This document shows positions 38,768 through 60,048 of a DNA stretch of 64,000 nucleotides, piece by piece. The notes below the pieces were generated by a model. It had not been told where the DNA came from. It did not search any database and saw only the letters and a list, made by a program, of their open reading frames with translations. Made by a program: the position numbers and the translations under genes. How positions within the stretch are numbered: the stretch's first letter is position 1; every line of letters starts with the position of its first letter. The stretch lies in the NCBI RefSeq assembly GCF_002854065.1, contig NZ_CP024147.1, one strand, 5' to 3'. This DNA is from Escherichia coli. Its GTDB lineage: Bacteria; Pseudomonadota; Gammaproteobacteria; Enterobacterales; Enterobacteriaceae.

Positions 38768-39247
38768 TCACGAAGATAATGATCGTATGGCTTCCTTAAG
38801 GGCTGGTGAGACACGTTGATTAAGTGCTTCATTAGCCCAGTCGGATTGCACGGGTATTCTACGCAATATCACTGTGTTTAAAGCAGCAAACAAACGATGC
38901 AGTAAATGTATAGAACCGGTCGCGATAGCTGTATCCACCCACTGGTCCGCATAGAGCCATGGGGCTGAAAATAAATCAGCCATCGCCTGAGTAGCAACTT
39001 CAATAGACGCTTTTTCTAGGCAAAGAACATCACCCTGATCGCCAAAATTATGCTCAAAGTAAGGCAATCCTTCTATATTCGTGCGAATTAGAGGAAATGG
39101 GCAGCGCCCAATGCTCAGTAAAATATAGGCGTCTATACGCTGATCATCGTCACCCACCTCTGCTGACGGCAGTTTCGCTAGTTGCCCGAGTATCATCCAA
39201 CTGGTTGATTTAGAAATGACCTTTGGGATTTGATCCTCTAAATTCAC
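38768..39247 (-). CDS. Hypothetical protein (159 aa), downstream partner of the nuclease-NTPase gene
   Basis: ORF begins at a GTG with upstream AAGAG; 70 bp after the stop of the NTPase ORF on the same strand; no recognisable motif. Confidence 0.5.
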   Translation of the reverse strand: MNLEDQIPKVISKSTSWMILGQLAKLPSAEVGDDDQRIDAYILLSIGRCPFPLIRTNIEGLPYFEHNFGDQGDVLCLEKASIEVATQAMADLFSAPWLYADQWVDTAIATGSIHLLHRLFAALNTVILRRIPVQSDWANEALNQRVSPALKEAIRSLSS

Positions 39248-39316
39248 CAGAATACTCTTTGCATCATCCCCGTGTTTAGAAATCCACGCTAATCCATCCT
39301 CAATCTTTAGATTGAC

Positions 39317-41128
39317 TTATTGGTTGTCTGGCATAGCTAAAGTAAACAATCCGTTTTTTATAGGTTCTTTATATGGCTCAATGCTGAGAAGGCCCTGAAT
39401 AATTCCAAAGCTGAAATATCTCTCTTTAGCTGCCATACGGCGTATGGCTTGAGCACCGATCATATCTCCAAGATAAGTGGCGTCTAGCCGTTCGCCAAGC
39501 CAAGCCCCGGCGTCTTGAGGGTCTTGTTCTGCCCGTAAAACCAGTTCATCACAAACAGCATCCGACAGTTCCAGAAGGTAAGCTGCGGGAACTGTCGGCA
39601 CCACAACATCTTCCCATCCTGAAAGGCGAAAAATACGAACTGCCCCCATATGTTTTAACTCATTCACTACACCACGAGCTTCGTCAGAAAGTGCGTCATA
39701 CCGCACGACAAATCCATTCGCTTTAGCAAACATTAATTCTACTGAGTGGGAGTTTGTGTCAGCTAGTGCGCAGCGTGCAAGAACCCGATAATAACGAAGA
39801 AGATCATACTGACTCTCATAGCTCTTTTGCGCAGCATCTATAAGTTCCATACCGGGTGATGGAGGAAGATAGGCGATAAGATCCGTTTTCTGGTATTGAT
39901 GATTGCGCACAATGTCATCATAAATAGTGCGAAGAACCCAAGGCGAGCGGTAGTCATCGGCGTATTCTGCTCCCTGTTGAAAAACTATCCGCTGGTCCGA
40001 GAGAATCTGTTGCGCCAGCTTAAATTCATCTAGGGACATAGGCGATGTTTTAAATACCTTCGACCGGCTACCAATTGCAGACGGAGTTCGTCCGTTTGGA
40101 TTTTTCAGTAACGCGTTGGCATGATAGGTCGTCAGAACAACCACCAGCCTGTTGCCAAAACGTATACCCGCAAGTTCCTCAAGATCAGTAGCCATTTGGG
40201 AGCCTGGTTCAACGTCGTCGATAGCAAGCATAAGCGATGGACCTTCAGTGCAGTTAGACATTCGTCTTAACCAGTTACGTGCATCATTTGAGGTTAAATT
40301 CCATTCAAATTCAGCTGCAAAAAGATTGGCCAGAGCCTGAAATAGTCCTGGTCCGGAACCTCGTAACATCAGGACAGCCAAAAGATCGCTACTTTCCGTT
40401 TTTAGCGAAATTTCACGGAGGCAACTGCTTTTTCCGCTTTGTGCATCACCCTCAATGATAGTGAAAGCTGTACCCATCACAGCAGATTCAATTACAAGAG
40501 ACGTGATTTTGCGAGGAAAAAGTAGGTTGTTGGCAAATGGATGTTCTGAATGCCCAGGCTGATCAGTTATATCAATCAGCAGCCGGGCTGTTTCTTCTCG
40601 CACAGCTGGCACCCAAGCATTAGTTTCTCGCCCCATCAAGGCTTCAATAGCCCAGCGCATGTCAGCCGCCGCCAACTTTGCAGAATTGGCGAGCATCTTG
40701 TTTACCGCTGCCGAGGCATCCTGTCCACCCGACCACTGTTGTCCATTACTTGAGTCATAAACGCGCGTATCTTTACCGTTCGTAACTACAACGAGAGGCG
40801 GACGTGGTGTTAACTGGTTAGCGTAGCTTTAAGCCTGTTCATAATCATCATGGGTCAGTGTCAGGTCTTCACGTTTCAGTTCAATAACCGCAAGTGGTCT
40901 CTCCCGATGAAAGATCAAAACATCCGCTCGCCCGTATTTTTTCCAGTGTGCGGCGCTATCTATTTTGTAAGTTCCATGGCCTAGCCGAACGGTAAAATGG
41001 CGCTGTTCGATAAGATCTTCGCGAGGAATGTTAGGAAATGCTATGTTTAGTGCTGAAGTAAGCCGGCTTTCTAGCTCGGCTTCAGTTCGAACGAGTGGAG
41101 AGCCCGTTTTTGATTGCATACTTTTCAT
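39317..41128 (-). pseudogene. PD-(D/E)xK nuclease-like N-domain fused to P-loop NTPase, interrupted by one in-frame TAA (40829-40831)
   Basis: ORF 40829..41128 (RBS GAGGA; motif D-x-ELK in ADVLIF...AVIELKRED) and ORF 39317..40696 (Walker A GDAQSGKSS, Walker B LMLAIDDVE) share one frame; the 44 codons between them are open and read SYANQLTPRPPLVVVTNGKDTRVYD, continuing the nuclease-domain pattern; no RBS before the internal ATG. Confidence 0.6.
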
Positions 41129-41771
41129 GACAAAGTATCCTCAGATATTAGTCATTGGCTAAGTTTTTATTTCACTTACTACCTTTCCAGATTAATGCGA
41201 AGACGCATAGCATTGGATTAACGGATGTGAAATGGATTATTGACAAGCAAAGTAACTTTTTCCGCATAACTATCAATTGATTAGCTGAAGAAAGGGAATA
41301 TGATTTAGTTCACTCAGGTTTCTCCAGCACGATGTGCAGATGCTAAAGCCACGATTAATTCTAAAGCAGATTAATATAACCCTGAAACAGGCAGAGCAGG
41401 AAACGCCTGTATCGGAAGTATGCCGCATGACCGCCCCCGATAACTCACACCGAATGCCAATAGGAATGTCAGCCCCTCGCTCATAGCAGACCTTCGGGCC
41501 TGGCAGCTTAGTGCCAAGAACACTCCCCAGTGGCCTATCGGCAAGTGTAAGCGTACGAATATCGCCTCCGTGCTACACAGTAGACGACTACATTTTCGAC
41601 GCATGAGCAAATCGTGGCTTTAGTTGTCTAAAACCAGTGCTTCAACACTTTTTTTTCACCAAACAACGCATCGTAGAAGCACTAGTTGGATTCCACAGGC
41701 TTACGTAAACAAATAGCGCTAACGGCTAAGCTGGTCCATTAGACGCTCAATCATCCTCGCAAGAGGTATAG

Positions 41772-42788
41772 TTACTCGATGCCCAGAACAAATGACATTA
41801 ACAAATCTAGCTTTATTTTCATGTCTGCAGTTGCCGAAGCCGCATTAACCTGCGGCAAGGCAAGCCATCTGTTTACGGCATCGGAGTTGAATCTCTGCTG
41901 CCTTAGGAACGAAGATACCGACGTTTCCCAGGAAAAGATTTCACCCCCACAAAGTTCGACGGGCTGCTGAGAGCAGGCTCGCTGAATAGTCATTCCCAAA
42001 CCGACGTAGCGGAGAAGCTCACGTCGCACATTCTCATCTTTTTGCATGACTGGTGCATCCAGTTTCGGTTTCGGTCCAAAGTACACTCCGGTAGTACCTG
42101 GTTGTAATGTCGGGTCACTGGAAAAATAAACCGGAACTCCCATCAATTTAAATGCCGCTGTCAAAATTTCATAACTAATGTCTGATCGACTCCAACGGCC
42201 CATGTGGGGTGGTACTTTTGGCAAACCGACCAGATCATCGCCACGGCTTACAATCGATACCCCCTCAACTGGCACGGATGGTTGCATTCTGAATACAGCG
42301 TCAGAATCGATTTCCCAGCCAGCTTCGCTTAACAATCGCAAAAAATTACCAGCAGCCACGCACGATGATTCACTCCACTCAACACAACCGATGCGCAGCT
42401 TGTCCCGCTGACCGAACTGTCCTGTTCGAAATAATTCGAGGTATCTGTCGCGATTGGAACTATTAACGGCATATGCATCAATCACAGTAGGCGGTACAGG
42501 TTTACTTGCAGATTCAGGATTTTGTTGAAGCAAATCTGGGCTTATGAAAAACACTATAGCGAAGATCGCCACTGCGCCAGATGCTCTTAACCACCCATTA
42601 AATTTTACTTCAAGGAAACCAGGCAGAACTGCACCAATACATCCGGCAGCCAGAGCCAGAACTATTCGGTAAACTATATATTGATAAGGTGTGGGATTGG
42701 GGGTTGTGATAGTAGTAATGAGTATGGCAACTATCGCCACAACCGCAAAACCATACCTAATGAACTTGTCTGTCCTTACACTGCTCAT
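41772..42788 (-). CDS. Hypothetical membrane protein (338 aa, N-terminal transmembrane segments plus soluble domain)
   Basis: Hydrophobic helices FAVVAIVAILITTITT, IVYRIVLALAAGCIGAVLPGF, AVAIFAIVFFISP; no recognisable catalytic motif. Confidence 0.55.
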   Translation of the reverse strand: MSSVRTDKFIRYGFAVVAIVAILITTITTPNPTPYQYIVYRIVLALAAGCIGAVLPGFLEVKFNGWLRASGAVAIFAIVFFISPDLLQQNPESASKPVPPTVIDAYAVNSSNRDRYLELFRTGQFGQRDKLRIGCVEWSESSCVAAGNFLRLLSEAGWEIDSDAVFRMQPSVPVEGVSIVSRGDDLVGLPKVPPHMGRWSRSDISYEILTAAFKLMGVPVYFSSDPTLQPGTTGVYFGPKPKLDAPVMQKDENVRRELLRYVGLGMTIQRACSQQPVELCGGEIFSWETSVSSFLRQQRFNSDAVNRWLALPQVNAASATADMKIKLDLLMSFVLGIE

Positions 42789-43218
42789 TTTAATTTTGAC
42801 ACCTGAATCAAGTCCATAAGTCGAAAATCCCGCATTAAACTGTTCCCCAATGATTAATACAGCTTTATACGCGTAATGAGGCTATTGGCGTTGGTGATGA
42901 GTGTAACTGTCCATTCCTCGCTCAGAGCAACCTTCTGCTCCAAGAGTCAGTCTACAGTGTGCAAAAAACAGACGTTGATCACAATATCGAGTTAATCATT
43001 CGGCCGTTTATCACTCCCATTGAAAAATTTCTCAGTATCCAATATACCAATGTTGAGGGCTTCCCTCTTACATCTCAAAAGGATAACTATCATGGGTCTT
43101 AAACCTGGTCCAAAACCAATTGCTAAATCGACAGGAAAACCAGATCAACGCCGACGAGATAATAAAGATACTCCTGGCAACACTCCGGGACTAAAGCCAA
43201 GTAAGTCCACCGGGAAGT

Positions 43219-43254
43219 AAAAAAATCAGGGTATAAATAAGTTATTTATACCCT
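43219..43254 (-). terminator. Intrinsic terminator of the three-gene helicase cassette
   Basis: Perfect 12-bp stem AGGGTATAAATA / TATTTATACCCT with 3-nt loop, followed on the minus strand by a 7-T run; 16 bp after the helicase stop. Confidence 0.75.
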
Positions 43255-43269
43255 GACTACATATCCAGT

Positions 43270-45468
43270 CTACTGAAGGTGTTTCTGCAGCCAGGTGCAC
43301 GTTCCTTCTATATCATACGCCTGTGCCCCATACCCTTTAGCAAGCAAAGTCTCTGGTAAATACTCGTCATATTTATCCAGATACTTGTCAGGAACAACTG
43401 CAGCAAGCTCAAACTCTGAAGGTAACCCCGACAATAGCATTTTCTTAAGTACACGCTGGACAGAGGCAACGCCTGAGTCCTCTACCTCTATCACACCTGC
43501 AAATGAACTGGCTTTAAAGCCACAACGTATAAGCAGGGACGTAATTGTATTGACAATTTTATCCCCCATCCACGGGATCACGTAGCAGTTCTGACCACTG
43601 GCAATAAAACAGTCATTGTGTAGATTGTAGCGTTGGAAGTTGTCACTTCCTTCCGCAAAGAGGCTTCTGGCTGCGGCATCAGCATAATCGACTCTCTTGT
43701 TGCCTACCGCGATACGGTAATCATTTTCCCTGTAGATAGCGAGCATCTCCTGGCGAACAACATCATGAACAGACATCCCGCTACCACTGAATAGTGGTGG
43801 CTGACCGCCTTTAGTCGCCTCAACATAGATAACCTTTTTTTCAACCTCGATCTCTGTCACTTTCCAGCGCCGTCCGCCGAAGATGATGTGCTGCTCCGGC
43901 AAAAGTGGGGAGTCTACAGGCACTGTGCCAAGAGTTCGGTTTCCCGTTACAATGCGAAACTCCTCAGGTGTATTGAATACGGCATAAAACGTGTAGTGAT
44001 TAGTCAGCTTCTCCCCCTCAGCCCCGACAACTATTTCACCGCTGGCTAGTTGACTGAGCAGGCCACATGTCCCCATATGTTTAAGCAGACTTTTAAAGTC
44101 ATTTATATCCACATTCCGGAACGGACCTGTCTGGCAAAGTTGTGACCAGAGTTGATCGGCACGAACACCTCCCCATTGCGCAGTAATAGCCAGGATCTGG
44201 TGTAGTAGTGTGGAGTAATGTTTCTGCCGGATATCTGCAGGCTCGAACCAGCGCTTAGAGATCATCAACCTGATCATTGCCATCGCCTGAACCAACTGCA
44301 GCCGTAAATGATCCACAATGCTGCTGGTTGCGGTAAGTTCAGGTTCAGTAATTAACATTCTCAGCACCGATGGGGAATCGCGCCGCCCTGAACGTCCCAT
44401 GCGTTGACGCAGACTGGAAACAGAATGCGGAGGTGTCACTTGTATGACAGACTGCACCTTACCAATATCAATACCCAGCTCCAGCGTCATTGTACAAACA
44501 GCGGTTGTGGGCAAATTCCCTTTCTGCAGTCGGGCTTCAAGCGCCTCACGTAACTCCCTGGCAAGGGAGCCATGATGAGGAAAGAATTCATTAGGAACGA
44601 CATTTGCTTCACACATGTCGCTCAGTATTGCCGCTATGCTTTCAGTACGCTTTCGACTGTTAGCAAAGACCAGGTGGGAATCGCCACGACAGAGCCTGAA
44701 AATATCCGCGCAGACGAGCTGTTCAGCAGAGCTCTGGAGCTCTTCCCCTTTTTCGAGCACCCGCTCAAGATAACCTTTAACCTGAACTTGTAGTGTAGCG
44801 GTGCTATTACTGTCTGTTACCGTTTCACAAGGTAATCTCTTATCCGGACGCAATAATTCTGGCACTTTTTCCAGCTCTCCCAGAGTGGCACTCAACGCGA
44901 CACGGGGAACTGGATTTAACTGGCGTCCCAGCACATGGTCAATTCTATTAAGCAGCGAAAGCAGTTGTATACCACGCTCTGAGCCAATAAAAGCGTGGAA
45001 CTCATCAATAACAATGTATGCCACTGAAGAAAACGCCTGTTTGAGCCAACCCAATGAGTTTATGAGCAAAGACTCAAGTGATTCAGGTGTGATAAGTAAG
45101 ATACCTGACGGGCTTGTCCGTGCTTTATTCTTTTTGCTTTGTGGTACATCCCCGTGCCAGGGCGTCACTTGCATTTCCAGGGCTTCCCCCAGGCTCTCAA
45201 GACGACGGTGCTGATCGTTAATCAATGCCTTCAACGGACTGATATAGATAATGCCAAATCCACCAGTGAGATCTGCAATCGCTGAACAGGCAGGAAGAAA
45301 GAAAGCCTCTGTTTTACCCGCAGCTGTACCTGCACTAATTAGTACATCACGATCACGGGCTAAAATTGCCGGAATAGAGCTCTCCTGCAAGGGCCTTAAT
45401 GATGACCAGCCCTGCTTATAAATCCACTTACGGACACGGGGATCGAGACTATTGTAGGCACTGCTCAT
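43270..45468 (-). CDS. Superfamily-2 DExH-box helicase with C-terminal extension; third gene of Shango-like cassette (SngC-like)
   Basis: 732 aa; Q-motif LRPLQ, motif I SAGTAAGKTEAF, motif Ia SPLKAL, motif II VIDEFHAF, motif III SAT, motif VI QRMGRSGRR; start overlaps the upstream stop by 4 bp. Confidence 0.85.
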   Translation of the reverse strand: MSSAYNSLDPRVRKWIYKQGWSSLRPLQESSIPAILARDRDVLISAGTAAGKTEAFFLPACSAIADLTGGFGIIYISPLKALINDQHRRLESLGEALEMQVTPWHGDVPQSKKNKARTSPSGILLITPESLESLLINSLGWLKQAFSSVAYIVIDEFHAFIGSERGIQLLSLLNRIDHVLGRQLNPVPRVALSATLGELEKVPELLRPDKRLPCETVTDSNSTATLQVQVKGYLERVLEKGEELQSSAEQLVCADIFRLCRGDSHLVFANSRKRTESIAAILSDMCEANVVPNEFFPHHGSLARELREALEARLQKGNLPTTAVCTMTLELGIDIGKVQSVIQVTPPHSVSSLRQRMGRSGRRDSPSVLRMLITEPELTATSSIVDHLRLQLVQAMAMIRLMISKRWFEPADIRQKHYSTLLHQILAITAQWGGVRADQLWSQLCQTGPFRNVDINDFKSLLKHMGTCGLLSQLASGEIVVGAEGEKLTNHYTFYAVFNTPEEFRIVTGNRTLGTVPVDSPLLPEQHIIFGGRRWKVTEIEVEKKVIYVEATKGGQPPLFSGSGMSVHDVVRQEMLAIYRENDYRIAVGNKRVDYADAAARSLFAEGSDNFQRYNLHNDCFIASGQNCYVIPWMGDKIVNTITSLLIRCGFKASSFAGVIEVEDSGVASVQRVLKKMLLSGLPSEFELAAVVPDKYLDKYDEYLPETLLAKGYGAQAYDIEGTCTWLQKHLQ

Positions 45469-46781
45469 AGTCTGAAATTCGCCAGGCCATCATCGTCATC
45501 ACTTTCCTCCACAATGGCATCCCCCATATCGCTGGGCTTGTCTTCTTCAATCGCCACCCCCTCAATGAGAGCTTGCCAGTTCATCGTACTGTTTTGTTCC
45601 AGCACAGCCAGCATATCCAGAAAACCTTTTATGGTATTGCGGGGAGTTCGAAAGTAAGCATCTCCGATGGTTTTGCTGCAGTGATGCAGAAACCCGGTCA
45701 GAGCCTCATCTGGCACCAGATAATTTGCGGGATCTCCACCAGCATAAACATGACGAAGATTTTTCAGTAAAATATACAGTTCCTCAGGAGTGAGGCTGGC
45801 AAGATGTAGCGTGGGAGACGAGTAGTCAATCACGCCAGCTTTCTGTGCGAATCGATTTTCTGCCAGACGCGACTGGAGCGCTTCATAGCTGTAGAGCCCC
45901 TTACGTGGATCGAAAAGAAACTCTGGCGTCCCCCCGAGGATAAAACCAATATTTTCGGCGGAGCCTTGCAGGCAGTCATTCAGGATCCGCAAAATTTGTT
46001 CGTAGTTGGCCGTTCTCGCTTGCGTATTATTCAACTTGAAGAGGTTCACCATCTCGTCGAGGCTAACTAAAAGTCCGGCATAGCCTGCCTGACGGACAAA
46101 AAGGCTCATCAACTTCAAAGAGTCATAGAACGAGGCGTCTGAGATAATCGTTCGGACGTCAAGATCATTACGGGCATCAGTTTTTGTGGTGTACTCGCCC
46201 CGCAACCAGCGAATAGCATTGGATTTTAAGGTTTCGTTATCCTGCTCATGCCCGCGCCAGAATGCGTCAATGACCTTCGCAAAGTCATATCCACCCACCA
46301 TATCTGACAAAGCAGCAAGGCGTTTATGAATAACGGATGAGACCTGGGAGCCGTTCGCATCAGCTTCCTTCCTTGCCTCAGTAACAAACCTTTCCACAAC
46401 GCTAAGTAATGCATTGCCATCTGGTTTGTTTCTGGTGGACATATTTTTCATAAGCTCTGAGTAGAGATTACGAGCCTGACCTCCCGATGAGTGAATACGT
46501 CTGTCGGGAGAAAGGTCTGCACTGACCGTGACCAGCTTTTTCTCTAACGCAATAGACCGTACAACACTTAAAAAGAACGTTTTGCCGGAACCATACTCAC
46601 CAATGATAAGTCTGAAGCTTGCCCCGCCATCAGCAATCCGTTCAATATCCTGATGGAGGGCGGTTATCTCATTCACGCGGCCAACCTGGATATGCTGAAT
46701 ACCTATCCTTGGCGTTACTCCCGACTTAAGTGACTGAATAATAGCGTCGCGCTCTTTCACTCTTATACGTGTTACAGACAT
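45465..46781 (-). CDS. P-loop ATPase; second gene of Shango-like cassette (SngB-like)
   Basis: 438 aa; Walker A GEYGSGKTFFL, Walker B LLVSLDEM; start 3 bp after the upstream stop. Confidence 0.85.
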   Translation of the reverse strand: MSVTRIRVKERDAIIQSLKSGVTPRIGIQHIQVGRVNEITALHQDIERIADGGASFRLIIGEYGSGKTFFLSVVRSIALEKKLVTVSADLSPDRRIHSSGGQARNLYSELMKNMSTRNKPDGNALLSVVERFVTEARKEADANGSQVSSVIHKRLAALSDMVGGYDFAKVIDAFWRGHEQDNETLKSNAIRWLRGEYTTKTDARNDLDVRTIISDASFYDSLKLMSLFVRQAGYAGLLVSLDEMVNLFKLNNTQARTANYEQILRILNDCLQGSAENIGFILGGTPEFLFDPRKGLYSYEALQSRLAENRFAQKAGVIDYSSPTLHLASLTPEELYILLKNLRHVYAGGDPANYLVPDEALTGFLHHCSKTIGDAYFRTPRNTIKGFLDMLAVLEQNSTMNWQALIEGVAIEEDKPSDMGDAIVEESDDDDGLANFRL

Positions 46782-46784
46782 TCA

Positions 46785-49094
46785 CTAACCCTCTAATTCT
46801 TTGGCTATTTCCAGGTCAACCCAAATGTGATCATCAGCATCTTCCAGCACTGGTGCATCAACCACCGCATAGGACCAATCGTTAATCACCTCAAGCGCAC
46901 CGCCGAGCATCAGGTTCCAGTTACTACACAACTCTGTCGCCTCTTTTCTGGACCATTGTTCTTTCTCCAGCAACCTGCGATAAAGTTGGCTATGAGCGGA
47001 GTCAAGCCCCCCTTCCCCGGTTAATGAGGCTGGAGCGCTTTCTGGTTGTTCTGGTTCTTCTTCAGTGAAAATCGAGTTCAGTAATTTACGAACATCATCA
47101 GTGGCAGATTCGTGGCGGGCAAGTACATTGGCATCCAGCGTAAACCCTGCCGTCGACTGATTAGCTGGTACAGATGAAACGAGAGCAGTTTCAGTTACGG
47201 AATGCTGATGGATATTGCTTGATACGGATGAGGGATCCAACCCCAGGCTTGTATAAATCTTCTCAAGCTGTTTGATTTCGGCAGGCGTAATTCTGCCGTC
47301 AGAGCAAGCGACACTAACGATAACCTTACCCACAGCTGATTTTTCCGCTGCACCGAGTAACTCAATCCGGCTTTTCATTCCCGTCATATTCGCCGGGGTA
47401 TGAAGCTGCCACGTTAAATATGCGTGCAGAGAGCGCTTTTCATCATCGCTGAAGCTGACATTGTTGTTGATGGCATTCTCAAGCACTTTCTGTTCGGCTT
47501 GATCGAAAGAATTGTCAATCAAGGCGACTACCGAACCTAATCGGAGCGTCAATACAGCTGTGATAAATTCAGGAGAAGGAGAGAAGCGGCCACTTTCACC
47601 AGCAGGGAATAAAACAAGAACACCATCGACATCTGCTTTTACGTGGTGGTAATAGGGGTCAGGAGCCAGGCAGTACCCCATTTTCTGTGCAAAGGCCTGC
47701 ATCAAGTCGGCCTCTTTTTTGTTGATCTTTGCCGGACAGGTAGCATTCATGTGTGACCAGAAGTCAGCAACTGAAACTACTCCCCCCTTACTGAGGATCG
47801 CGTCATCAGCCCAGCGTTTGAATGCACTTAATATTTTATCTGCGCTTTCGTTAACGATTTCTGAAGGCAGCAACAAAATTGCAACGGTATCATTTGCTGA
47901 AGTGCCTTTTCTACCAAGGTAACGACTGTAAGCATCCAGTTCATCTGTGCATATATCAGCAAGAGTCATAAGCTTCTGAACAGGGCCTTTCAATGCACTT
48001 GGATCAGGCAAGTCAGGAACAGGAAGCCGAATACCTCTCAAACTGGGACTTGCAGGCGTGTAATCTAAACGCAGACGCGCTTTATTCGGCTTCACTACCA
48101 TCCCTTCACCGTATTTAAGGGTGTAACGCCGTTTAAATAGTGCAGCAAATTCTTTCGCACAGCGGCGGGCGGGGGTTCGTAATGAGTATTCAGTATGGTT
48201 TGTCACCCACGTCAGAGCCAGATCCGCTGGAACCGGGGCTCCTGCATCAACTGTCTTTGCCAGGATTAACCTGAACTGCATGCTATTGCTGAACTCTGAA
48301 TCATCGCTGAGAGCTGCTGCAAGATTTTCGTTCGGACGAAGAATGGACATCGCTTCAAGTAACTGGGACGAGTAGTTCCGGAATGATCTGTTTTCATTGA
48401 AAACAGATCTGAGACGGCAGATCTCTTTGAAAAGAGAATAGAACTCATCGTCAGATATATTGCTGTCCCTGCTGTCAACAAGCGCCCGTCTTTCCAGACC
48501 ATACAGATAAATAAAAACGTAACCAATTGGGCAAGAAGTGTCACATCTGTCGCTGGTAAGCCAACTCAGGTACGCGCCACGTGCTTCAGGTGAAAGTGAG
48601 GAATAACTGGGCCAATACCCTAATGAACTATCTTCGTAGATGTAAGATGTGGGGTATATCTTGAGCGTGTCGTCAATTAGCGATGCCTCGCTACTATCAT
48701 CATAATAACCGCCTGAGTTATGCCCGACAGGGTTCATTCGCTGTCCAAGATAGAAGTAGCCGCCGGTAATCTCTACCCCACCGACTGTGATCACCTCCCC
48801 CGGTAAAATCCAGCGAGCCAAAGCACCGGTAGTTTTTGAGAAATTCTGGCGTTGAGTGGCTGTTATACTGTATTCGGCATTCCGCCCGCCACTTAGTGTA
48901 AACGTAGCCAGATTGTCATCTTCGCTGTCCTCGTTGTGCATTACAGACTGATTTTTTTTGTTATTAGCAAGCCATTCTTTAGGTGGTGCTTTCACAGGAG
49001 CGGAAGTATAAGAGCCCGCGGACTTAGTTTTCTTCTTTTTGAAAAAAAGAATATAAATCAAATAAATCGCTACTATAAATATCCATAACTCCAT
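46785..49094 (-). CDS. Membrane-anchored TerB-N/TerB-C-type protein; first gene of Shango-like cassette (SngA-like)
   Basis: 769 aa; N-terminal TM helix MELWIFIVAIYLIYILFF then basic linker KKKKTK; size, position and architecture match the TerB-domain component of the TerB-ATPase-helicase triad (assignment by recognition, not by HMM). Confidence 0.7.
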   Translation of the reverse strand: MELWIFIVAIYLIYILFFKKKKTKSAGSYTSAPVKAPPKEWLANNKKNQSVMHNEDSEDDNLATFTLSGGRNAEYSITATQRQNFSKTTGALARWILPGEVITVGGVEITGGYFYLGQRMNPVGHNSGGYYDDSSEASLIDDTLKIYPTSYIYEDSSLGYWPSYSSLSPEARGAYLSWLTSDRCDTSCPIGYVFIYLYGLERRALVDSRDSNISDDEFYSLFKEICRLRSVFNENRSFRNYSSQLLEAMSILRPNENLAAALSDDSEFSNSMQFRLILAKTVDAGAPVPADLALTWVTNHTEYSLRTPARRCAKEFAALFKRRYTLKYGEGMVVKPNKARLRLDYTPASPSLRGIRLPVPDLPDPSALKGPVQKLMTLADICTDELDAYSRYLGRKGTSANDTVAILLLPSEIVNESADKILSAFKRWADDAILSKGGVVSVADFWSHMNATCPAKINKKEADLMQAFAQKMGYCLAPDPYYHHVKADVDGVLVLFPAGESGRFSPSPEFITAVLTLRLGSVVALIDNSFDQAEQKVLENAINNNVSFSDDEKRSLHAYLTWQLHTPANMTGMKSRIELLGAAEKSAVGKVIVSVACSDGRITPAEIKQLEKIYTSLGLDPSSVSSNIHQHSVTETALVSSVPANQSTAGFTLDANVLARHESATDDVRKLLNSIFTEEEPEQPESAPASLTGEGGLDSAHSQLYRRLLEKEQWSRKEATELCSNWNLMLGGALEVINDWSYAVVDAPVLEDADDHIWVDLEIAKELEG

Positions 49095-49166
49095 GAGGCA
49101 ATAACCTTAAAAATAGCTTTTCACGAACACCGAAAGGATGACGATGGGAAGTGGATTAATCTTAAA

Positions 49167-49194
49167 ATAATACTTCTAAATTACAAAGGTTAAA
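49167..49194 (-). promoter_or_regulatory. Putative sigma70 promoter for the three-gene cassette
   Basis: Minus-strand TTTAAC (-35) - 16 nt - TATTAT (-10), about 75 bp upstream of the first start codon. Confidence 0.25.
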
Positions 49195-49561
49195 AGCAAA
49201 TCACAACCTTCCCGAACCTCCGCTTTTCGCTTGCTACGGTCCCTGCCGAGCATGAATCTCGTCTATGCCCAAAAGCGGACATTGATAATTCAGAAACCAT
49301 GGCAGAAGTGTGGTATCAGCCCCTCACCTGATGCCTGCCAGCATCGCACCTCGCTTCATGTCTAACCTCTCTGTTAGCCCGGCAGGGTCAATGGCTCTGT
49401 TGACAATGGTGCTACTTTCCAATACGTTAAGCACAAGGTTAGCGCGACCCGGCAGCTCACGGCCAAAGCGGAATGCAGCGCAGACTTATCAAATCTTTTT
49501 TGGTTAAGTGTCTTTGATTCTTATGATTCGTGAGCACATAGGACAGATAAGAGACTTAAAC

Positions 49562-50135
49562 CATGAAACAAATCCCCACATGCGCTGAAGCAAAAGCCCA
49601 CGCCAAATACCTTTCACGGTCGCTCAATATCAATCTAAGCTACGCCCGGGATGCAGTGGCATTACGTTATAACTACCATAACTGGTCGGAACTCAGCACA
49701 GTATTTGGTCAGCTTAGCTGATAAGTACATGTCGTGCTATGGCCTTGCCAGTCATGAAGAGAAGCGTGTTTTTAGCCAGCTTCTGGCACCATATATCGCA
49801 GAATTGCAAAATGTCATTCATCCTGACCGCCATGTACGGAAAGCTTGATACGTAAGATTGCTGAAGGCCATATTTCCCGGGTATCTGGTAAAGTGATGTC
49901 GGCTGTAATACGTGAATGCGAGGATTTTCCTCCCACGACAGTTAAAGACATCATTGAACTGCTTGAATTTTATGATGAAACGGCCAGCCGGATATTAGCA
50001 GGACACCACCGGCAGATCCCGACCAATAATCCCTTGCTGAAACCCTGGGTATTTGGTGTGCGCTTTTATGCCTATAACCACTTTAATGCCAAGCTGGTCA
50101 CCATCTGTGATCTTCCGCCAACATGCCTCTTCTGA
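49562..50135 (+). pseudogene. Gene of unknown function broken into three consecutive frames (53+65+96 aa)
   Basis: ORFs 49562..49723, 49651..49848, 49845..50135 succeed each other in frames 2, 1, 0 with short overlaps, suggesting two frameshifts in a ~190-codon gene. Confidence 0.3.
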
Positions 50136-50248
50136 ACTCTCCCGACGTCAACAAAACCCCCTCTAATCCCTTATATATCAGGATTTCTTTGTATCCAGAG
50201 GCCAACCGCCTTCACCCCGTATCAAGTTACTTTTGGGGGTATAATTTA

Positions 50249-50689
<441 letters not shown>

Positions 50690-50785
50690 CATGCATCACA
50701 ACAGCTCCTCATAGGCACTCAGTGGTCGATGTTCCACCTGACTGATCTGCTGCCAGAGCGGGGCGTGAGGTTCCGGTACTATCTG

Positions 50786-51082
50786 CTAGCCAGACGACAC
50801 TGAGCAGAGGCGATGTGAGGCCACCAGTTTCTCATTACTGTAGATCCGCAACTCATCGTTCAGCGATATTCGTATCGAGACTGGCTGACCACACAGCATT
50901 TCGGGAACGCTGTACTGATTACCTCCAACTTCGTTATAGCGGGTCCCAGGACACATGGCGGATGTCGAAGTAACTGGTATCGAAGTCTGTATCCGGTAAC
51001 GGCTGCAGATGTTCCTGCTCCAGCGCGAAGCGCTGTTCCGGCGTTTCTTTGAACTGACGAAGCTCCCATTTGTCAGCCACAT
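50786..51082 (-). pseudogene. Transposase C-terminal remnant (possibly IS21 IstA-like; family uncertain)
   Basis: 98-aa ORF ...YSVPEMLCGQPVSIRISLNDELRIYSNEKLVASHRL resembles transposase C-terminal domains; no N-terminal catalytic region. Confidence 0.35.
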
Positions 51083-51234
51083 CGGCTAGCGCCAGCTAAC
51101 CTATGCGGTACTGGCCTTGGTGCTAACCCGCGTTAAAGCTACCACGTTGATCAGAGCCTCTCTCCCGGAAAGTCATACTGTCTTACATATTAATCACTCA
51201 AAATAGAGTAAATAAAATCGGTAATGACTCCAAC

Positions 51235-51738
51235 TTATTGATAGTGTTTTATGTTCAGATAATGCCCGATGACTTTGTCATGCAGCTCCACCGATTTTGA
51301 GAACGACAGCGACTTCCGTCCCAGCCGTGCCAGGTGCTGCCTCAGATTCAGGTTATGCCGCTCAATTCGCTGCGTATATCGCTTGCTGATTACGTGCAGC
51401 TTTCCCTTCAGGCGGGATTCATACAGCGGCCAGCCATCCGTCATCCATATCACCACGTCAAAGGGTGACAGCAGGCTCATAAGACGCCCCAGCGTCGCCA
51501 TAGTGCGTTCACCGAATACGTGCGCAACAACCGTCTTCCGGAGACTGTCATACGCGTAAAACAGCCAGCGCTGGCGCGATTTAGCCCCGACATAGCCCCA
51601 CTGTTCGTCCATTTCCGCGCAGACGATGACGTCACTGCCCGGCTGTATGCGCGAGGTTACCGACTGCGGCCTGAGTTTTTTAAGTGACGTAAAATCGTGT
51701 TGAGGCCAACGCCCATAATGCGGGCAGTTGCCCGGCAT
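51235..51738 (-). CDS. insB: IS1 InsB transposase reading frame
   Basis: 167-aa [19 protein letters not shown]... (a few substitutions relative to copy 1). Confidence 0.9.
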
Positions 51739-51932
51739 CCAACGCCATTCATGGCCATATCAATGATTTTCTGGTGCGTACCGGGTTGAGAAGCGGTGTA
51801 AGTGAACTGCAGTTGCCATGTTTTACGGCAGTGAGAGCAGAGATAGCGCTGATGTCCGGCGGTGCTTTTGCCGTTACGCACCACCCCGTCAGTAGCTGAA
51901 CAGGAGGGACAGCTGATAGAAACAGAAGCCAC
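51657..51932 (-). CDS. insA: IS1 InsA
   Basis: 91-aa ORF; canonical TTAAAAAACTC frameshift window. Confidence 0.9.
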
Positions 51933-52145
51933 TGGAGCACCTCAAAAACACCATCATACACTAAATCAGTAAGTTGGCAGCATCACCAATAAAATCATAC
52001 AACTAGAGAGTGATTATAATTGTTATTGAACACTGGTTATCCCATTTTTGTTATATTGATCACAAAACCCTTCTTTTTATGATGATCTAAAAATAAATAT
52101 TAAATATTGTGGTCAGGCCGCTAGACCGCAATAAGAGGAAATATC

Positions 52146-57958: not shown

Positions 57959-59635
57959 TCAGTCCGCCGGATGGCGGTAAGGCAGCAGTTCATCCAGCCG
58001 GGACGCCGTCCATGACGGCAGCTTCTCCAGCACATCTCGCAGCCAGACTACTGGCTCCAGACCGTTCAGCCTCGCCGTGTGCAGCAGCGTCAGCAGCTCC
58101 GCCAGCCGCTCTCCTCCCCGCAGCGAACCCGCGAACAGCCATGACTTCCGCCCCTGCGCCACCGGACGCATCATCTACTCACTCCGGTTGTTGTCCAGCG
58201 GTACCCGTCCGTCATTCAGGTATGTTTCCAGCGCCGGCCAACGCTTCAGGGCATACGTCACCGCACCGTGCAGCCTGCCACCCGGCGCGCTCGTCTTTTC
58301 CGTCGCCCTCAGCCAGCTGTGGAACGCCTCCATCTGCGGCTTCGCGTACCGCCGTCGCCATCGCCATTTCTGCTCTGCCGGACGCTGCCGGATGGTCTGC
58401 TCCAGGATATACAGCGCCCGTATCTGTTTCAGCGCCTCCTTCGCCCCCGGACTGCCGTTCATTCTGTACAGCTCCATGAACTTTCTGCGCACGTGCGCCA
58501 TGCACCCCGCCTCACAGATACCCGGTGCCGCCGGAGGGGCCCCTTCCTGCCCGTCACGGAACAGCGCCCGGTAACCGGCATAACCGTCAGCCACCAGAGT
58601 CCCCGACCACCCGCTCAGCATCTCACACGCATACTGCCCCGCACGCCCCGGACGGCAGTCGTACACCACGATGTCCCGGGCACTGCCCGCCGCACTCACG
58701 TATGCTCACAGGTACCCTTTCCGGACTTTCCCTTTCCGCGTATCCAGTATCTGCAGCGGCGTCTCGTCCGCCTGCAGCACCGGTTGCCTGAGCAGGTCAC
58801 GTTTCAGGGCTGCCGCCAGCGGCGACAGCACCGCCGCCGTCGGCCCGAACCAGTCCGTCAGCGTGCTTTCCGGCAACTGTACCCCTTCACGGGCGTATAT
58901 CTTCTGCTGCCGCTGCAGTGACAGGTGATCCAGCACCTTCGCGGTCACCACCTGCGCCAGCAGACCCGGACCCGGCTGCCCTTTGTCGATGACTGCCGGC
59001 GGCAGCACGGCACTGTGCACCGTGTCGCAGCACGGGCAACTGTACTGCGGTCTCACGGTCCGTTTCACCACGAAGTGTGCCGGTACATACTCCAGCACCT
59101 CATTCACCTCGTCGCGGATATGTCGCATTTCACTTCCGCAGTCCGGACAGGTGCTACCGGTCTCAGGCATGAGTACGGTTTCCTGTCGCGGCAGGTGTGC
59201 CGGCAGGGGGTGACGGGCCGGCTTCTTCCCGGTTTTCTCCTTCACCGGCAGCAGGTCGCTCAGTTGCCGGGTGATATCAGCCTCATCGCTGGCCGCGTCC
59301 TCATCTGCCAGTGGTTTCTGGCTGGCCGGGAGGCGCTCGCTTTTACGCCCGAAGCGCCACTGGTGGGCCAGCTTCAGGGCCTCCTCCAGCTCCCGGATGC
59401 GCTGTTCATATGCGGTTTTTTCTGCCTGCATGGCGGCATTAAGGTCATGGATACGCTGTTCCAGCGTGGTGGTGACGGTATTCAGGTTATGGAGGCGCTG
59501 TTCCAGCGTGGTGTTGACGGTATTCAGGTTATGAAGGCGCTGCTCATATTCGCATGCCTGTGCCGTCAGCAGCGCTGTTGCCAGACGGCGCAGTTCATCG
59601 GGGTTTTGTGTGGTGTTCAGGATGTCATCTGTCAT
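57959..59635 (-). pseudogene. IS66-family TnpC transposase split into three ORFs by frameshifts
   Basis: ORFs 58706..59635 (N-terminal coiled-coil and zinc-finger CPDCG...CPCC), 58175..58699 and 57959..58174 together cover a TnpC-like protein in different frames. Confidence 0.75.
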
Positions 59636-59709
59636 GCAGCCATGATGACAGAGGCGGGCGGGAACATCCTGATAAGAAGCTGCCCGTATTATGATTCTGG
59701 CACAGGAGG

Positions 59710-60048
59710 TTATTCAGTCCACCTCTGCAGGGGGCTGGCAGAGAGACGCAGCCAGTCAACGCCGGCGGTAAGCCAGGCGAACTGTTCCGCCGTGAGCGAC
59801 CAGGTGGTGTCGCCGTCGCGGGGCCAGCGGAAGGCGCCCTGGTGCAGGCGGCGGGTGCAGAGCCAGACGCCGTGGCGGTCCCACATCAGGAGTTTCATGC
59901 GGGTGCGTTTTTTCCCGGTGAAGAGGAAGGCTTCGCCTTCCCGGGGCGGATGCCCGGCGGCCTGAGTGGCGAGTCGCGTCAGGGAGTCGATGCCGGCGCG
60001 TATGTCAGCAGGCTCGCGGACGAGCCAGAGGGAATGAGGGCTCAGCAC
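59710..60048 (-). CDS. IS66-family Orf2 (TnpB)
   Basis: 112-aa ORF MLSPHSLWLVREPADIRAGIDSL...RMKLLMWDRHGVWLCTRRL... typical IS66 Orf2. Confidence 0.8.
   Translation of the reverse strand: MLSPHSLWLVREPADIRAGIDSLTRLATQAAGHPPREGEAFLFTGKKRTRMKLLMWDRHGVWLCTRRLHQGAFRWPRDGDTTWSLTAEQFAWLTAGVDWLRLSASPLQRWTE

What the first reader, a model, noticed from the sequence alone, without database searches (positions are those of the whole stretch)
43219..49194. Shango-like three-gene cassette (TM/TerB-type protein, P-loop ATPase, DExH helicase) in the tRNA-Arg island
Three co-directional minus-strand genes of 769, 438 and 732 aa are packed with a 3-bp gap and a 4-bp start/stop overlap, preceded by a plausible sigma70 promoter and closed by a perfect 12-bp hairpin plus T7 terminator, so they form one discrete transcription unit. 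Gene 1 has an N-terminal membrane helix and a large soluble region that I recognise as the TerB-N/TerB-C type. Gene 2 has Walker A GEYGSGKT and Walker B LLVSLDE. Gene 3 is an SF2 helicase (GTAAGKT, DEFH, SAT, QRMGRSGR) with a ~300-aa C-terminal extension. This architecture corresponds to the TerB-ATPase-helicase module predicted by Anantharaman, Iyer and Aravind and reported as the anti-phage system Shango (SngABC) by Millman et al. 2022. Its trigger, substrate and mechanism are to my knowledge not established. Its location in an integrase-bearing island next to other defence-like genes supports an immunity role.
Basis: partly seen in the sequence, partly recalled or inferred. Interest (0 to 1): 0.85.

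Follow-up and report, generated by a model that had tools for sequence, protein, structure and literature searches.

The report
Known Shango anti-phage operon, E. coli

Summary

- **Genes:** three minus-strand genes of 769, 438 and 732 aa, with a 3-bp gap, a 4-bp overlap and a strong terminator.
- **Family match:** they match the PADLOC Shango models SngA, SngB and SngC at E = 6.5e-103, 1.3e-187 and 7.1e-277. Gene 1 carries the Pfam domains TerB_N, TerB and TerB_C.
- **Already validated:** the cassette is an allele of the E. coli KTE113 Shango validated by Millman et al. 2022. Protein lengths are the same, identity is 93.5/98.7/97.0 %, and the upstream region is 95.5 % identical.
- **Distribution:** it is near-identical in at least 442 of 5,426 complete E. 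coli genomes and occurs on 617 plasmids.
- **Unsupported:** the claimed promoter is not above chance. The "other defence-like genes" come down to one uncharacterised neighbour, which is a pseudogene here.

The mechanism is still unpublished. My model, at roughly 0.3 probability, has three parts. SngA is a membrane-anchored cytoplasmic scaffold or sensor. SngB is a BrxD-like AAA+ ATPase that loads the helicase. SngC is an Lhr-like helicase with DNA-binding C-terminal domains and no nuclease. Together they would act on invading DNA.

One small addition: SngB ends in a conserved acidic L-x-x-F-x-L tail in 11 of 11 systems examined.

The parts
49095..49563 (-). Upstream region that should hold the native promoter. 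No specific promoter could be pinned down.
   Evidence: It is 95.5 % identical to the first 399 nt of the KTE113 Shango insert, and Millman et al. expressed their systems from native promoters. No consensus promoter site upstream of the ATG passes the scan.
46785..49094 (-). sngA: 769-aa membrane-anchored TerB_N / TerB / TerB_C protein.
   Evidence: PADLOC SngA 6.5e-103. Pfam domains found. Protein identical to WP_000424706.1 in strain AMSCJX02. Structure model pLDDT 86.6.
49032..49091 (-). SngA residues 2-21: N-terminal transmembrane anchor, followed by KKKK. By the positive-inside rule the rest of the protein is cytoplasmic.
   Evidence: Top hydropathy segment. Modelled as a helix. Present in 103 of 104 close homologues and 90 of 150 diverse homologues.
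48891..48926 (-). SngA residues 57-68 (DSEDDNLATFTL): acidic L-x-x-F-x-L motif in the disordered linker. It resembles the SngB C-terminal tail.
   Evidence: Present in the SngA linker of several relatives and absent from others.
48168..48803 (-). SngA TerB_N domain (residues 98-309), with invariant E201 and E224.
   Evidence: Pfam PF13208, 1.6e-49. Invariant columns in the 96- and 148-sequence alignments.
47223..47540 (-). SngA TerB domain (residues 519-624).
46791..47165 (-). SngA TerB_C domain (residues 644-768).
   Evidence: Pfam PF15615, 7.5e-27.
45465..46781 (-). sngB: 438-aa BrxD-like AAA+ ATPase.
   Evidence: PADLOC SngB 1.3e-187, BrxD 1.1e-43. Pfam BrxC_BrxD 2.2e-151. NCBIfam BrxD scores 145.9 bits, below the cut-off of 350.
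46578..46601 (-). SngB Walker A, GEYGSGKT (residues 61-68).
46053..46073 (-). SngB Walker B, LLVSLDE (residues 237-243).
45468..45500 (-). SngB C-terminal tail, DDDDGLANFRL-COOH (residues 428-438). It lies beyond the Pfam ATPase domain, after an acidic linker.
   Evidence: The acidic phi-x-x-F-x-L C-terminus is present in 11 of 11 systems, one with an extra final Lys, and in 0 of 509 background proteins.
43270..45468 (-). sngC: 732-aa Lhr/BrxHI-like SF2 helicase.
   Evidence: PADLOC SngC 7.1e-277, BrxHI 3.4e-115. Pfam DEAD plus Helicase_C. Nearest solved sequences are Lhr (5v9x, 7lhl) and YprA (6znp).
45310..45330 (-). SngC helicase motif I, GTAAGKT (residues 47-53).
44995..45006 (-). SngC helicase motif II, DEFH (residues 155-158).
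44383..44406 (-). SngC helicase motif VI, QRMGRSGR (residues 355-362).
43273..44346 (-). SngC C-terminal region (residues 375-732): winged helix, small beta-barrel and an Lhr-like alpha+beta C-terminal domain. No nuclease fold.
43219..43255 (-). Intrinsic terminator: 12-bp perfect stem, 5-nt loop, then an A and seven T.
34593..34667 (+). Context: tRNA-Arg(CCT), the integration site of the island.
   Evidence: ARAGORN. RefSeq annotation of the near-identical strain places it after yfdC.
34843..36033 (+). Context: tyrosine integrase of the island.
   Evidence: Annotated as a tyrosine-type recombinase/integrase in strain AMSCJX02. ORF listed.

Best explanation
**What it is.** The locus is an intact Shango (sngABC) anti-phage operon. 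It is an allele of the E. coli KTE113 system validated by Millman et al. 2022, and it sits in an integrase-bearing island at tRNA-Arg(CCT). I put identity at about 0.97 and the defence role at about 0.9.

**How it most likely works.** This part is inference, at about 0.3.
1. SngA is held at the inner membrane by one N-terminal helix. Its TerB_N, TerB and TerB_C body, which also contains small winged-helix-like parts, faces the cytoplasm. It acts as scaffold or sensor and places the system where foreign DNA enters.
2. SngB is a BrxD-type ORC/Cdc6-like AAA+ ATPase. It joins the complex through its conserved acidic L-x-x-F-x-L C-terminal tail and uses ATP to load or switch on SngC.
3. SngC is an Lhr-core-like SF2 helicase with a winged helix, a beta-barrel and an Lhr-like C-terminal domain. 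It translocates on or unwinds invading DNA or early replication intermediates.
4. This lowers phage yield modestly without a dedicated nuclease or toxin.

**Shown:** domain content, homology, gene order, membrane anchor, lack of a recognisable nuclease, and the tail motif. **Inferred:** every step of the mechanism.
For: **Identity**
- PADLOC SngA, SngB and SngC are the top hits. Pfam domains agree.
- 93.5, 98.7 and 97.0 % protein identity and 95.5 % upstream identity to the validated KTE113 clone.
- Gene order A-B-C is kept in 10 of 10 distant loci.

**Defence role**
- Millman et al. list the KTE113 system as verified, and their systems were expressed from native promoters.
[quoted passage not shown] They also report about 10-fold inhibition of two phages by the E. 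coli system.

**Mechanism**
- The anchor helix followed by KKKK is conserved.
- In some long SngA variants the N-terminal module is a DNA-binding HHH_5 (3 of 19) or HARE-HTH (1 of 19) domain. This suggests the module sets location.
- SngB and SngC are homologues of the tightly linked BrxD-BrxHI pair of type-2 BREX. A 2026 paper proposes BrxD as the loader of BrxHI.
- The SngC C-terminal model matches winged-helix domains and Lhr, with no nuclease fold.
- SngA has no enzyme fold, only TerB and winged-helix similarities.
- The SngB tail is conserved in 11 of 11 systems.
- SngA is the fastest-evolving component, as expected for a sensor.
Against: - No experiment on this exact allele. SngC has two private substitutions here, K114N and P238L, outside the helicase motifs.
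- No published mechanism exists to compare with.
- About 40 % of diverse SngA relatives show no N-terminal TM-like segment in my hydropathy screen, so membrane tethering cannot be essential to the family as a whole.
- No protein-protein contact was tested, because no multimer prediction was available.
- The lack of a nuclease rests on fold and profile searches, which could miss a divergent or composite active site. The invariant E201 and E224 of TerB_N could be catalytic or metal-binding.
- The helicase substrate and polarity are inferred only from the Lhr similarity.
Confidence: 0.85

Rival explanations
1. Shango works by abortive infection. SngA senses a membrane or ion disturbance caused by phage and releases SngB and SngC to act on the host chromosome, or to drain ATP. 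The infected cell then dies or stalls before phage are made.
For: - Other TerB-containing defence systems, Bunzi and Dionysus, pair TerB with membrane proteins or pore-forming effectors. Authors have proposed membrane surveillance for the TerB domain.
- No self/non-self marker such as a methyltransferase is present in the operon.
Against: - No toxin, pore or nuclease domain was found in any of the three proteins.
[quoted passage not shown] That is not the usual abortive-infection pattern.
Confidence: 0.15
2. The main natural role is conflict between mobile elements, for example limiting incoming plasmid or conjugative DNA. Phage defence would be a side effect.
For: - The same cassette (SngB at least 95 % identical) is on 617 plasmids, mostly large conjugative Klebsiella and Salmonella plasmids, and in tRNA-linked islands.
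- It co-occurs in islands with the ApsAB anti-plasmid system.
- A membrane-tethered, Lhr-like helicase that works on single-stranded DNA would be well placed to meet conjugative DNA. This last point is inference.
Against: - No anti-plasmid activity of Shango appears in the papers read here.
- Anti-phage activity is shown in two species.
- Carriage on conjugative plasmids argues against a general block to conjugation.
Confidence: 0.1
3. The genes are a remnant of a type-2 BREX system, a BrxD plus BrxHI pair that lost its partners, and not an independent system.
For: SngB matches BrxD (1.1e-43) and SngC matches BrxHI (3.4e-115) over their full lengths. BrxD and BrxHI form a tightly linked pair in type-2 BREX.
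Against: - The Shango models score far higher: 622 vs 148 bits for gene 2 and 919 vs 384 bits for gene 3.
- NCBIfam BrxD scores 145.9 bits, below its cut-off of 350.
- No PglX, PglZ, BrxC or PglW is annotated within 16 kb either side in the near-identical strain.
- The TerB gene is always the first gene in 10 of 10 distant loci.
- The three genes alone were listed as verified for defence.
Confidence: 0.01
4. It is a housekeeping stress or repair module, either tellurite resistance via TerB or an Lhr-type DNA-repair helicase, and not an immune system.
For: RefSeq names gene 1 a "tellurite resistance TerB family protein" in some genomes. SngC's nearest solved relatives are the repair helicases Lhr and YprA.
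Against: - No ter operon genes lie nearby.
- The TerB domain match is weak (26.5 bits) and sits inside a TerB_N/TerB_C protein.
- The NCBIfam Lhr-type models are far below cut-off: 230.6 vs 850 and 193.6 vs 849.
- Distribution is patchy, at 442-821 of 5,426 E. coli genomes.
- The locus is in a mobile island and on plasmids.
- Anti-phage activity has been shown directly.
Confidence: 0.02

Closest known systems
Shango (SngABC): E. coli KTE113 system of Millman et al. 2022, and the P. aeruginosa PA14 system of Johnson et al. 2022/2023
   Same: Same three genes, order and protein lengths (769, 438, 732 aa). Identity to KTE113 is 93.5, 98.7 and 97.0 %, and the upstream region is the same. All three PADLOC models match.
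   Different: Only allelic differences. SngA is the most diverged component. SngC has private K114N and P238L changes. This allele itself has not been tested.
BrxD-BrxHI pair of type-2 BREX (Pgl)
   Same: SngB and SngC are full-length homologues of BrxD and BrxHI. My SngC C-terminal model shows a winged helix, a beta-barrel and an Lhr-like C-terminal domain, which is the layout described for BrxHI. The ATPase and helicase genes are adjacent in both.
   Different: No methyltransferase, PglZ, BrxC or PglW is present. A TerB_N/TerB/TerB_C protein takes their place. The scores lie well below the Shango models and below the NCBIfam BrxD cut-off.
Lhr-core and MrfA/YprA DNA-repair helicases
   Different: The NCBIfam Lhr-type models are far below cut-off. 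SngC is encoded with a TerB protein and an AAA+ ATPase in a mobile defence operon.
Other TerB-containing defence systems (Bunzi BnzA, Dionysus DinB)
   Same: They contain a TerB domain and have a proposed link to the membrane.
   Different: Their partners are membrane or pore-forming proteins, not an ATPase and a helicase. [quoted passage not shown]

Membership tests
Shango (SngABC) | SngA: a protein matching the SngA model, with TerB-type domains | tested here: met
   PADLOC SngA 6.5e-103. Pfam TerB_N 1.6e-49, TerB 8.4e-06, TerB_C 7.5e-27.
Shango (SngABC) | SngB: an ATPase matching the SngB model | tested here: met
   PADLOC SngB 1.3e-187 over residues 1-438. Walker A and B present.
Shango (SngABC) | SngC: a helicase matching the SngC model | tested here: met
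   PADLOC SngC 7.1e-277 over residues 2-729. Helicase motifs I, II, III and VI present.
Shango (SngABC) | All three genes adjacent, on the same strand, in the order A-B-C | tested here: met
   3-bp gap and 4-bp overlap. Same order in 10 of 10 distant loci.
Shango (SngABC) | Confers resistance to phage when expressed | not testable with these tools
   Marked as verified for the 93.5-98.7 % identical KTE113 allele and shown for the PA14 system in the literature. Not tested for this allele.
Type-2 BREX | Core genes PglX (methyltransferase), PglZ and BrxC, plus PglW, next to BrxD and BrxHI | tested here: not met
   None is annotated within 16 kb either side in the near-identical strain AMSCJX02.
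Type-2 BREX | ATPase reaches the curated BrxD equivalog score | tested here: not met
   NF033438 scores 145.9 bits against a cut-off of 350.
Tellurite resistance (ter) operon | TerB encoded alongside other ter genes (terZ, A, C, D, E) | tested here: not met
   No ter genes in the annotated neighbourhood. The TerB domain is a weak internal match at 26.5 bits.
Lhr / ligase-associated DEXH helicases | Reaches the curated family score | tested here: not met
   TIGR04121 scores 230.6 against 850. PRK13767 scores 193.6 against 849.

The most novel reading that the evidence does not exclude
SngB ends in a conserved acidic L-x-x-F-x-L-COOH tail, and some SngA proteins carry a look-alike copy in the linker next to the membrane anchor. 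These could be docking peptides that control the assembly and hand-off of a membrane-tethered helicase-loader complex. That would give the first concrete handle on how Shango is switched on.
Probability: 0.25. Interest if true: 0.45.

Novelty: already known. Interest (0 to 1): 0.15.

Why it matters
**As a finding, very little.** Standard defence-system annotation tools would flag this locus. It is an allele of the published type example and is common in E. coli and on enterobacterial plasmids.

**Its residual value is as material for an open question.** Shango has no established trigger, substrate or mechanism. The anatomy worked out here gives specific, cheap mutants to test in the already cloned KTE113 system:
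- a conserved membrane anchor;
- DNA-binding modules that replace the anchor in some SngA variants;
- a BrxD/BrxHI-type loader and helicase pair with no nuclease;
- a conserved C-terminal tail on SngB.

Tried and rejected
- **Sigma-70 promoter.** The scan gave no site upstream of the ATG, and the totals were below chance. The specific promoter claim is rejected.
- **BREX remnant, ter operon and Lhr housekeeping readings.** Rejected on model scores and neighbourhood.
- **Known RNA families at 41000-51500, both strands.** None found.
- **Second copy of the tRNA-Arg 3' end, to mark the far edge of the island.** None in the window, so the island boundary is outside the window or degraded.
- **Does BrxD carry the same C-terminal tail as SngB?** This would tell whether the tail binds the helicase or SngA. 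Left open.
- **Neighbouring genes.** The 338-aa membrane ORF has no family match and lies outside the validated clone. The HsdR_N-domain gene has no defence-family match and is a pseudogene here. Neither is counted as part of the system.
- **Anantharaman et al. 2012.** Not held in the library. Only secondary citations were available.
Full report
**Observation.**
The window holds three minus-strand ORFs at 46785-49094 (769 aa), 45465-46781 (438 aa) and 43270-45468 (732 aa). They are separated by a 3-bp gap and a 4-bp ATGA overlap. In gene 2 these are GEYGSGKT at 61-68 and LLVSLDE at 237-243. In gene 3 they are GTAAGKT at 47-53, DEFH at 155-158, SAT at 193-195 and QRMGRSGR at 355-362.

The terminator is real. 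A perfect 12-bp stem lies at 43255-43227 with a 5-nt loop, followed by an A and seven T ending at 43219. It is the strongest such site in the region. The N-terminal helix of gene 1 (residues 2-21, then KKKK) is the most hydrophobic stretch of the protein.

The promoter is the one unsupported detail. Promoter-like sites are not above chance (8 found, 10 expected), and the two nearest overlap the start codon. No known RNA family lies in 41000-51500 on either strand.

**Identity.**
The three proteins match the PADLOC models SngA (6.5e-103), SngB (1.3e-187) and SngC (7.1e-277). Each match is far better than any other model. Pfam finds TerB_N (98-309), TerB (519-624) and TerB_C (644-768) on gene 1. 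It finds BrxC_BrxD (6-407) on gene 2, and DEAD plus Helicase_C on gene 3.

**Link to the validated system.**
The supplement of Millman et al. (bioRxiv 10.1101/2022.05.11.491447) lists the verified Shango clone SG206 from E. coli KTE113. It is a 6,700-bp insert encoding proteins of 769, 438 and 732 aa. The supplement holds the first 399 residues of each protein. Over those, the window proteins are 93.5, 98.7 and 97.0 % identical. The first 399 nt of the insert align to window 49563-49166 at 95.5 %. The locus is therefore an allele of the published type example.

Johnson et al. (bioRxiv 10.1101/2022.11.11.516204) found Shango independently in P. aeruginosa PA14. [quoted passage not shown] They note that the E. 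coli system inhibited two phages by about 10-fold.

**Distribution and context.**
The 5,976-bp region has matches in 821 of 5,426 complete E. coli genomes. In 442 of them one match covers at least 80 % of the region, and 179 records match at 99 % identity or better. SngB at 95 % identity or more is also found on 617 PLSDB plasmids, mostly large conjugative Klebsiella and Salmonella plasmids.

In the window the operon sits in an island that starts at tRNA-Arg(CCT) (34593-34667) next to yfdC, with a tyrosine integrase. The island is full of IS remnants. No second copy of the tRNA 3' end lies in the window.

Compared with strain AMSCJX02, SngA and SngB are identical in protein. SngC has K114N and P238L.

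**Anatomy of SngA.**
The family is large, with 1,796 clusters at E <= 1e-30. The conserved core is residues 90-768 and the N-terminus varies.

- **Model.** A model built from 96 sequences is confident (pLDDT 86.6, pTM 0.72). It shows a helix at 2-21, a disordered linker to about residue 90, and then an ordered body.
- **Topology.** The KKKK cluster after the helix implies, by the positive-inside rule, that the body is cytoplasmic. This is inference.
- **Anchor conservation.** The anchor is present in 103 of 104 close homologues and 90 of 150 diverse homologues.
- **Alternative N-termini.** Some long variants carry HHH_5 (3 of 19) or HARE-HTH (1 of 19) DNA-binding domains at the N-terminus.
- **Conserved residues.** E201 and E224 in TerB_N are invariant.

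**Anatomy of SngB and SngC.**
SngB matches BrxD (1.1e-43), but below the NCBIfam cut-off (145.9 bits against 350). SngC matches BrxHI over its full length (3.4e-115). Its closest solved sequences are Lhr (5v9x, 7lhl) and YprA (6znp).

This matches the description of BrxHI in a 2026 NAR paper (PMC12839542). That paper also classes BrxD as an ORC/Cdc6-type AAA+ ATPase, tightly linked to BrxHI, and proposes it as the helicase loader.

**A feature not mentioned in the papers read here.**
Beyond the Pfam ATPase domain and an acidic linker, SngB ends in DDDDGLANFRL-COOH. The same acidic phi-x-x-F-x-L C-terminus is present in all ten distant Shango loci examined, one with an extra final Lys.

A look-alike motif, DDNLATFTL, sits in the SngA linker at residues 60-68. 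It is shared by several relatives but not all. I read the SngB tail as a docking peptide. That is untested.

All ten distant loci keep the gene order A-B-C. Across genera, SngA diverges faster than SngC: 76-81 % against 85-89 % identity.

**Mechanism.**
No mechanism is published in the library up to mid-2026. My best model, at about 0.3, is a membrane-tethered scaffold or sensor (SngA) that positions a loader ATPase (SngB) and an Lhr-like helicase (SngC) to act on invading DNA or early replication intermediates. There would be no dedicated nuclease.

- **Abortive infection** is the main rival, at 0.15. [quoted passage not shown]
- **A primary anti-plasmid role** (0.1) is suggested by carriage on plasmids and islands but has no direct support.
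- **BREX-remnant and housekeeping readings** are rejected.

**Verdict.**
The novelty class is "already known". Interest is low because the locus is a common allele of a published, validated system. The only added value is the set of anatomical leads for the still-open mechanism.

Noticed in passing
window 38768-41128 (-): This is the orthologue of a 786-aa [quoted passage not shown]. Here it carries two premature stops, at codons 100 and 604, caused by point changes at 40831 and 39319. The best of 235 complete E. coli genomes is 99.8 % identical, so no exact match to this allele is in that set. The intact protein has only an HSDR_N match at residues 63-131 and no defence-family hit.
   Followed up: partly
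window 45468-45500 (-), and loci L002-L007 and L009-L012: SngB ends in a conserved acidic phi-x-x-F-x-L-COOH tail in 11 of 11 Shango systems, one with an extra final Lys. None of 509 background protein C-termini match. It is possibly a docking peptide.
   Followed up: partly
window 48891-48926 (-): The SngA linker carries a look-alike of the SngB tail, DSEDDNLATFTL. It is shared by several SngA relatives but not all. In the model, residues 59-65 rise slightly above the pLDDT of the surrounding disordered linker.
   Followed up: partly
window 41772-42788 (-): A 338-aa ORF with N-terminal hydrophobic segments lies just downstream of the Shango terminator. It has no Pfam, PADLOC or NCBIfam match. 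It lies outside the 6.7-kb KTE113 clone, so it is not needed for defence.
   Followed up: partly
window 51220-51987: A 768-bp insertion relative to strain AMSCJX02, with an IS1 InsB-like ORF at 51235-51738.
   Followed up: partly
window 43270-45468 (-): SngC has two amino-acid changes, K114N and P238L, that are absent from both AMSCJX02 and KTE113. They lie outside the helicase motifs.
   Followed up: partly
plasmid collection, e.g. L008 (NZ_CP129856.1): The same Shango (SngB at least 95 % identical) is on 617 PLSDB plasmids, chiefly Klebsiella (452) and Salmonella (144). Of the 700 plasmid records with any SngB match, 545 are predicted conjugative. In the one plasmid inspected, no sngA gene is listed next to an ISVsa5 element, though the PLSDB gene table is incomplete.
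   Followed up: partly
SngA relatives P0244-P0385 (alignment A1): Long SngA variants carry extra N-terminal modules: a second partial TerB_N in P0244, HHH_5 in 3 of 19, and HARE-HTH in 1 of 19. About 60 % of diverse relatives have a TM-like N-terminal segment.
   Followed up: partly
window 58001-60000: A local GC peak of 0.64 corresponds to an IS66-family element (tnpA/B/C) in the reference annotation.
   Followed up: no
locus L009, 415-867: In one distant Shango locus an SSB-family gene lies directly upstream of sngA, and a YoeB/Phd toxin-antitoxin pair lies downstream.
   Followed up: no
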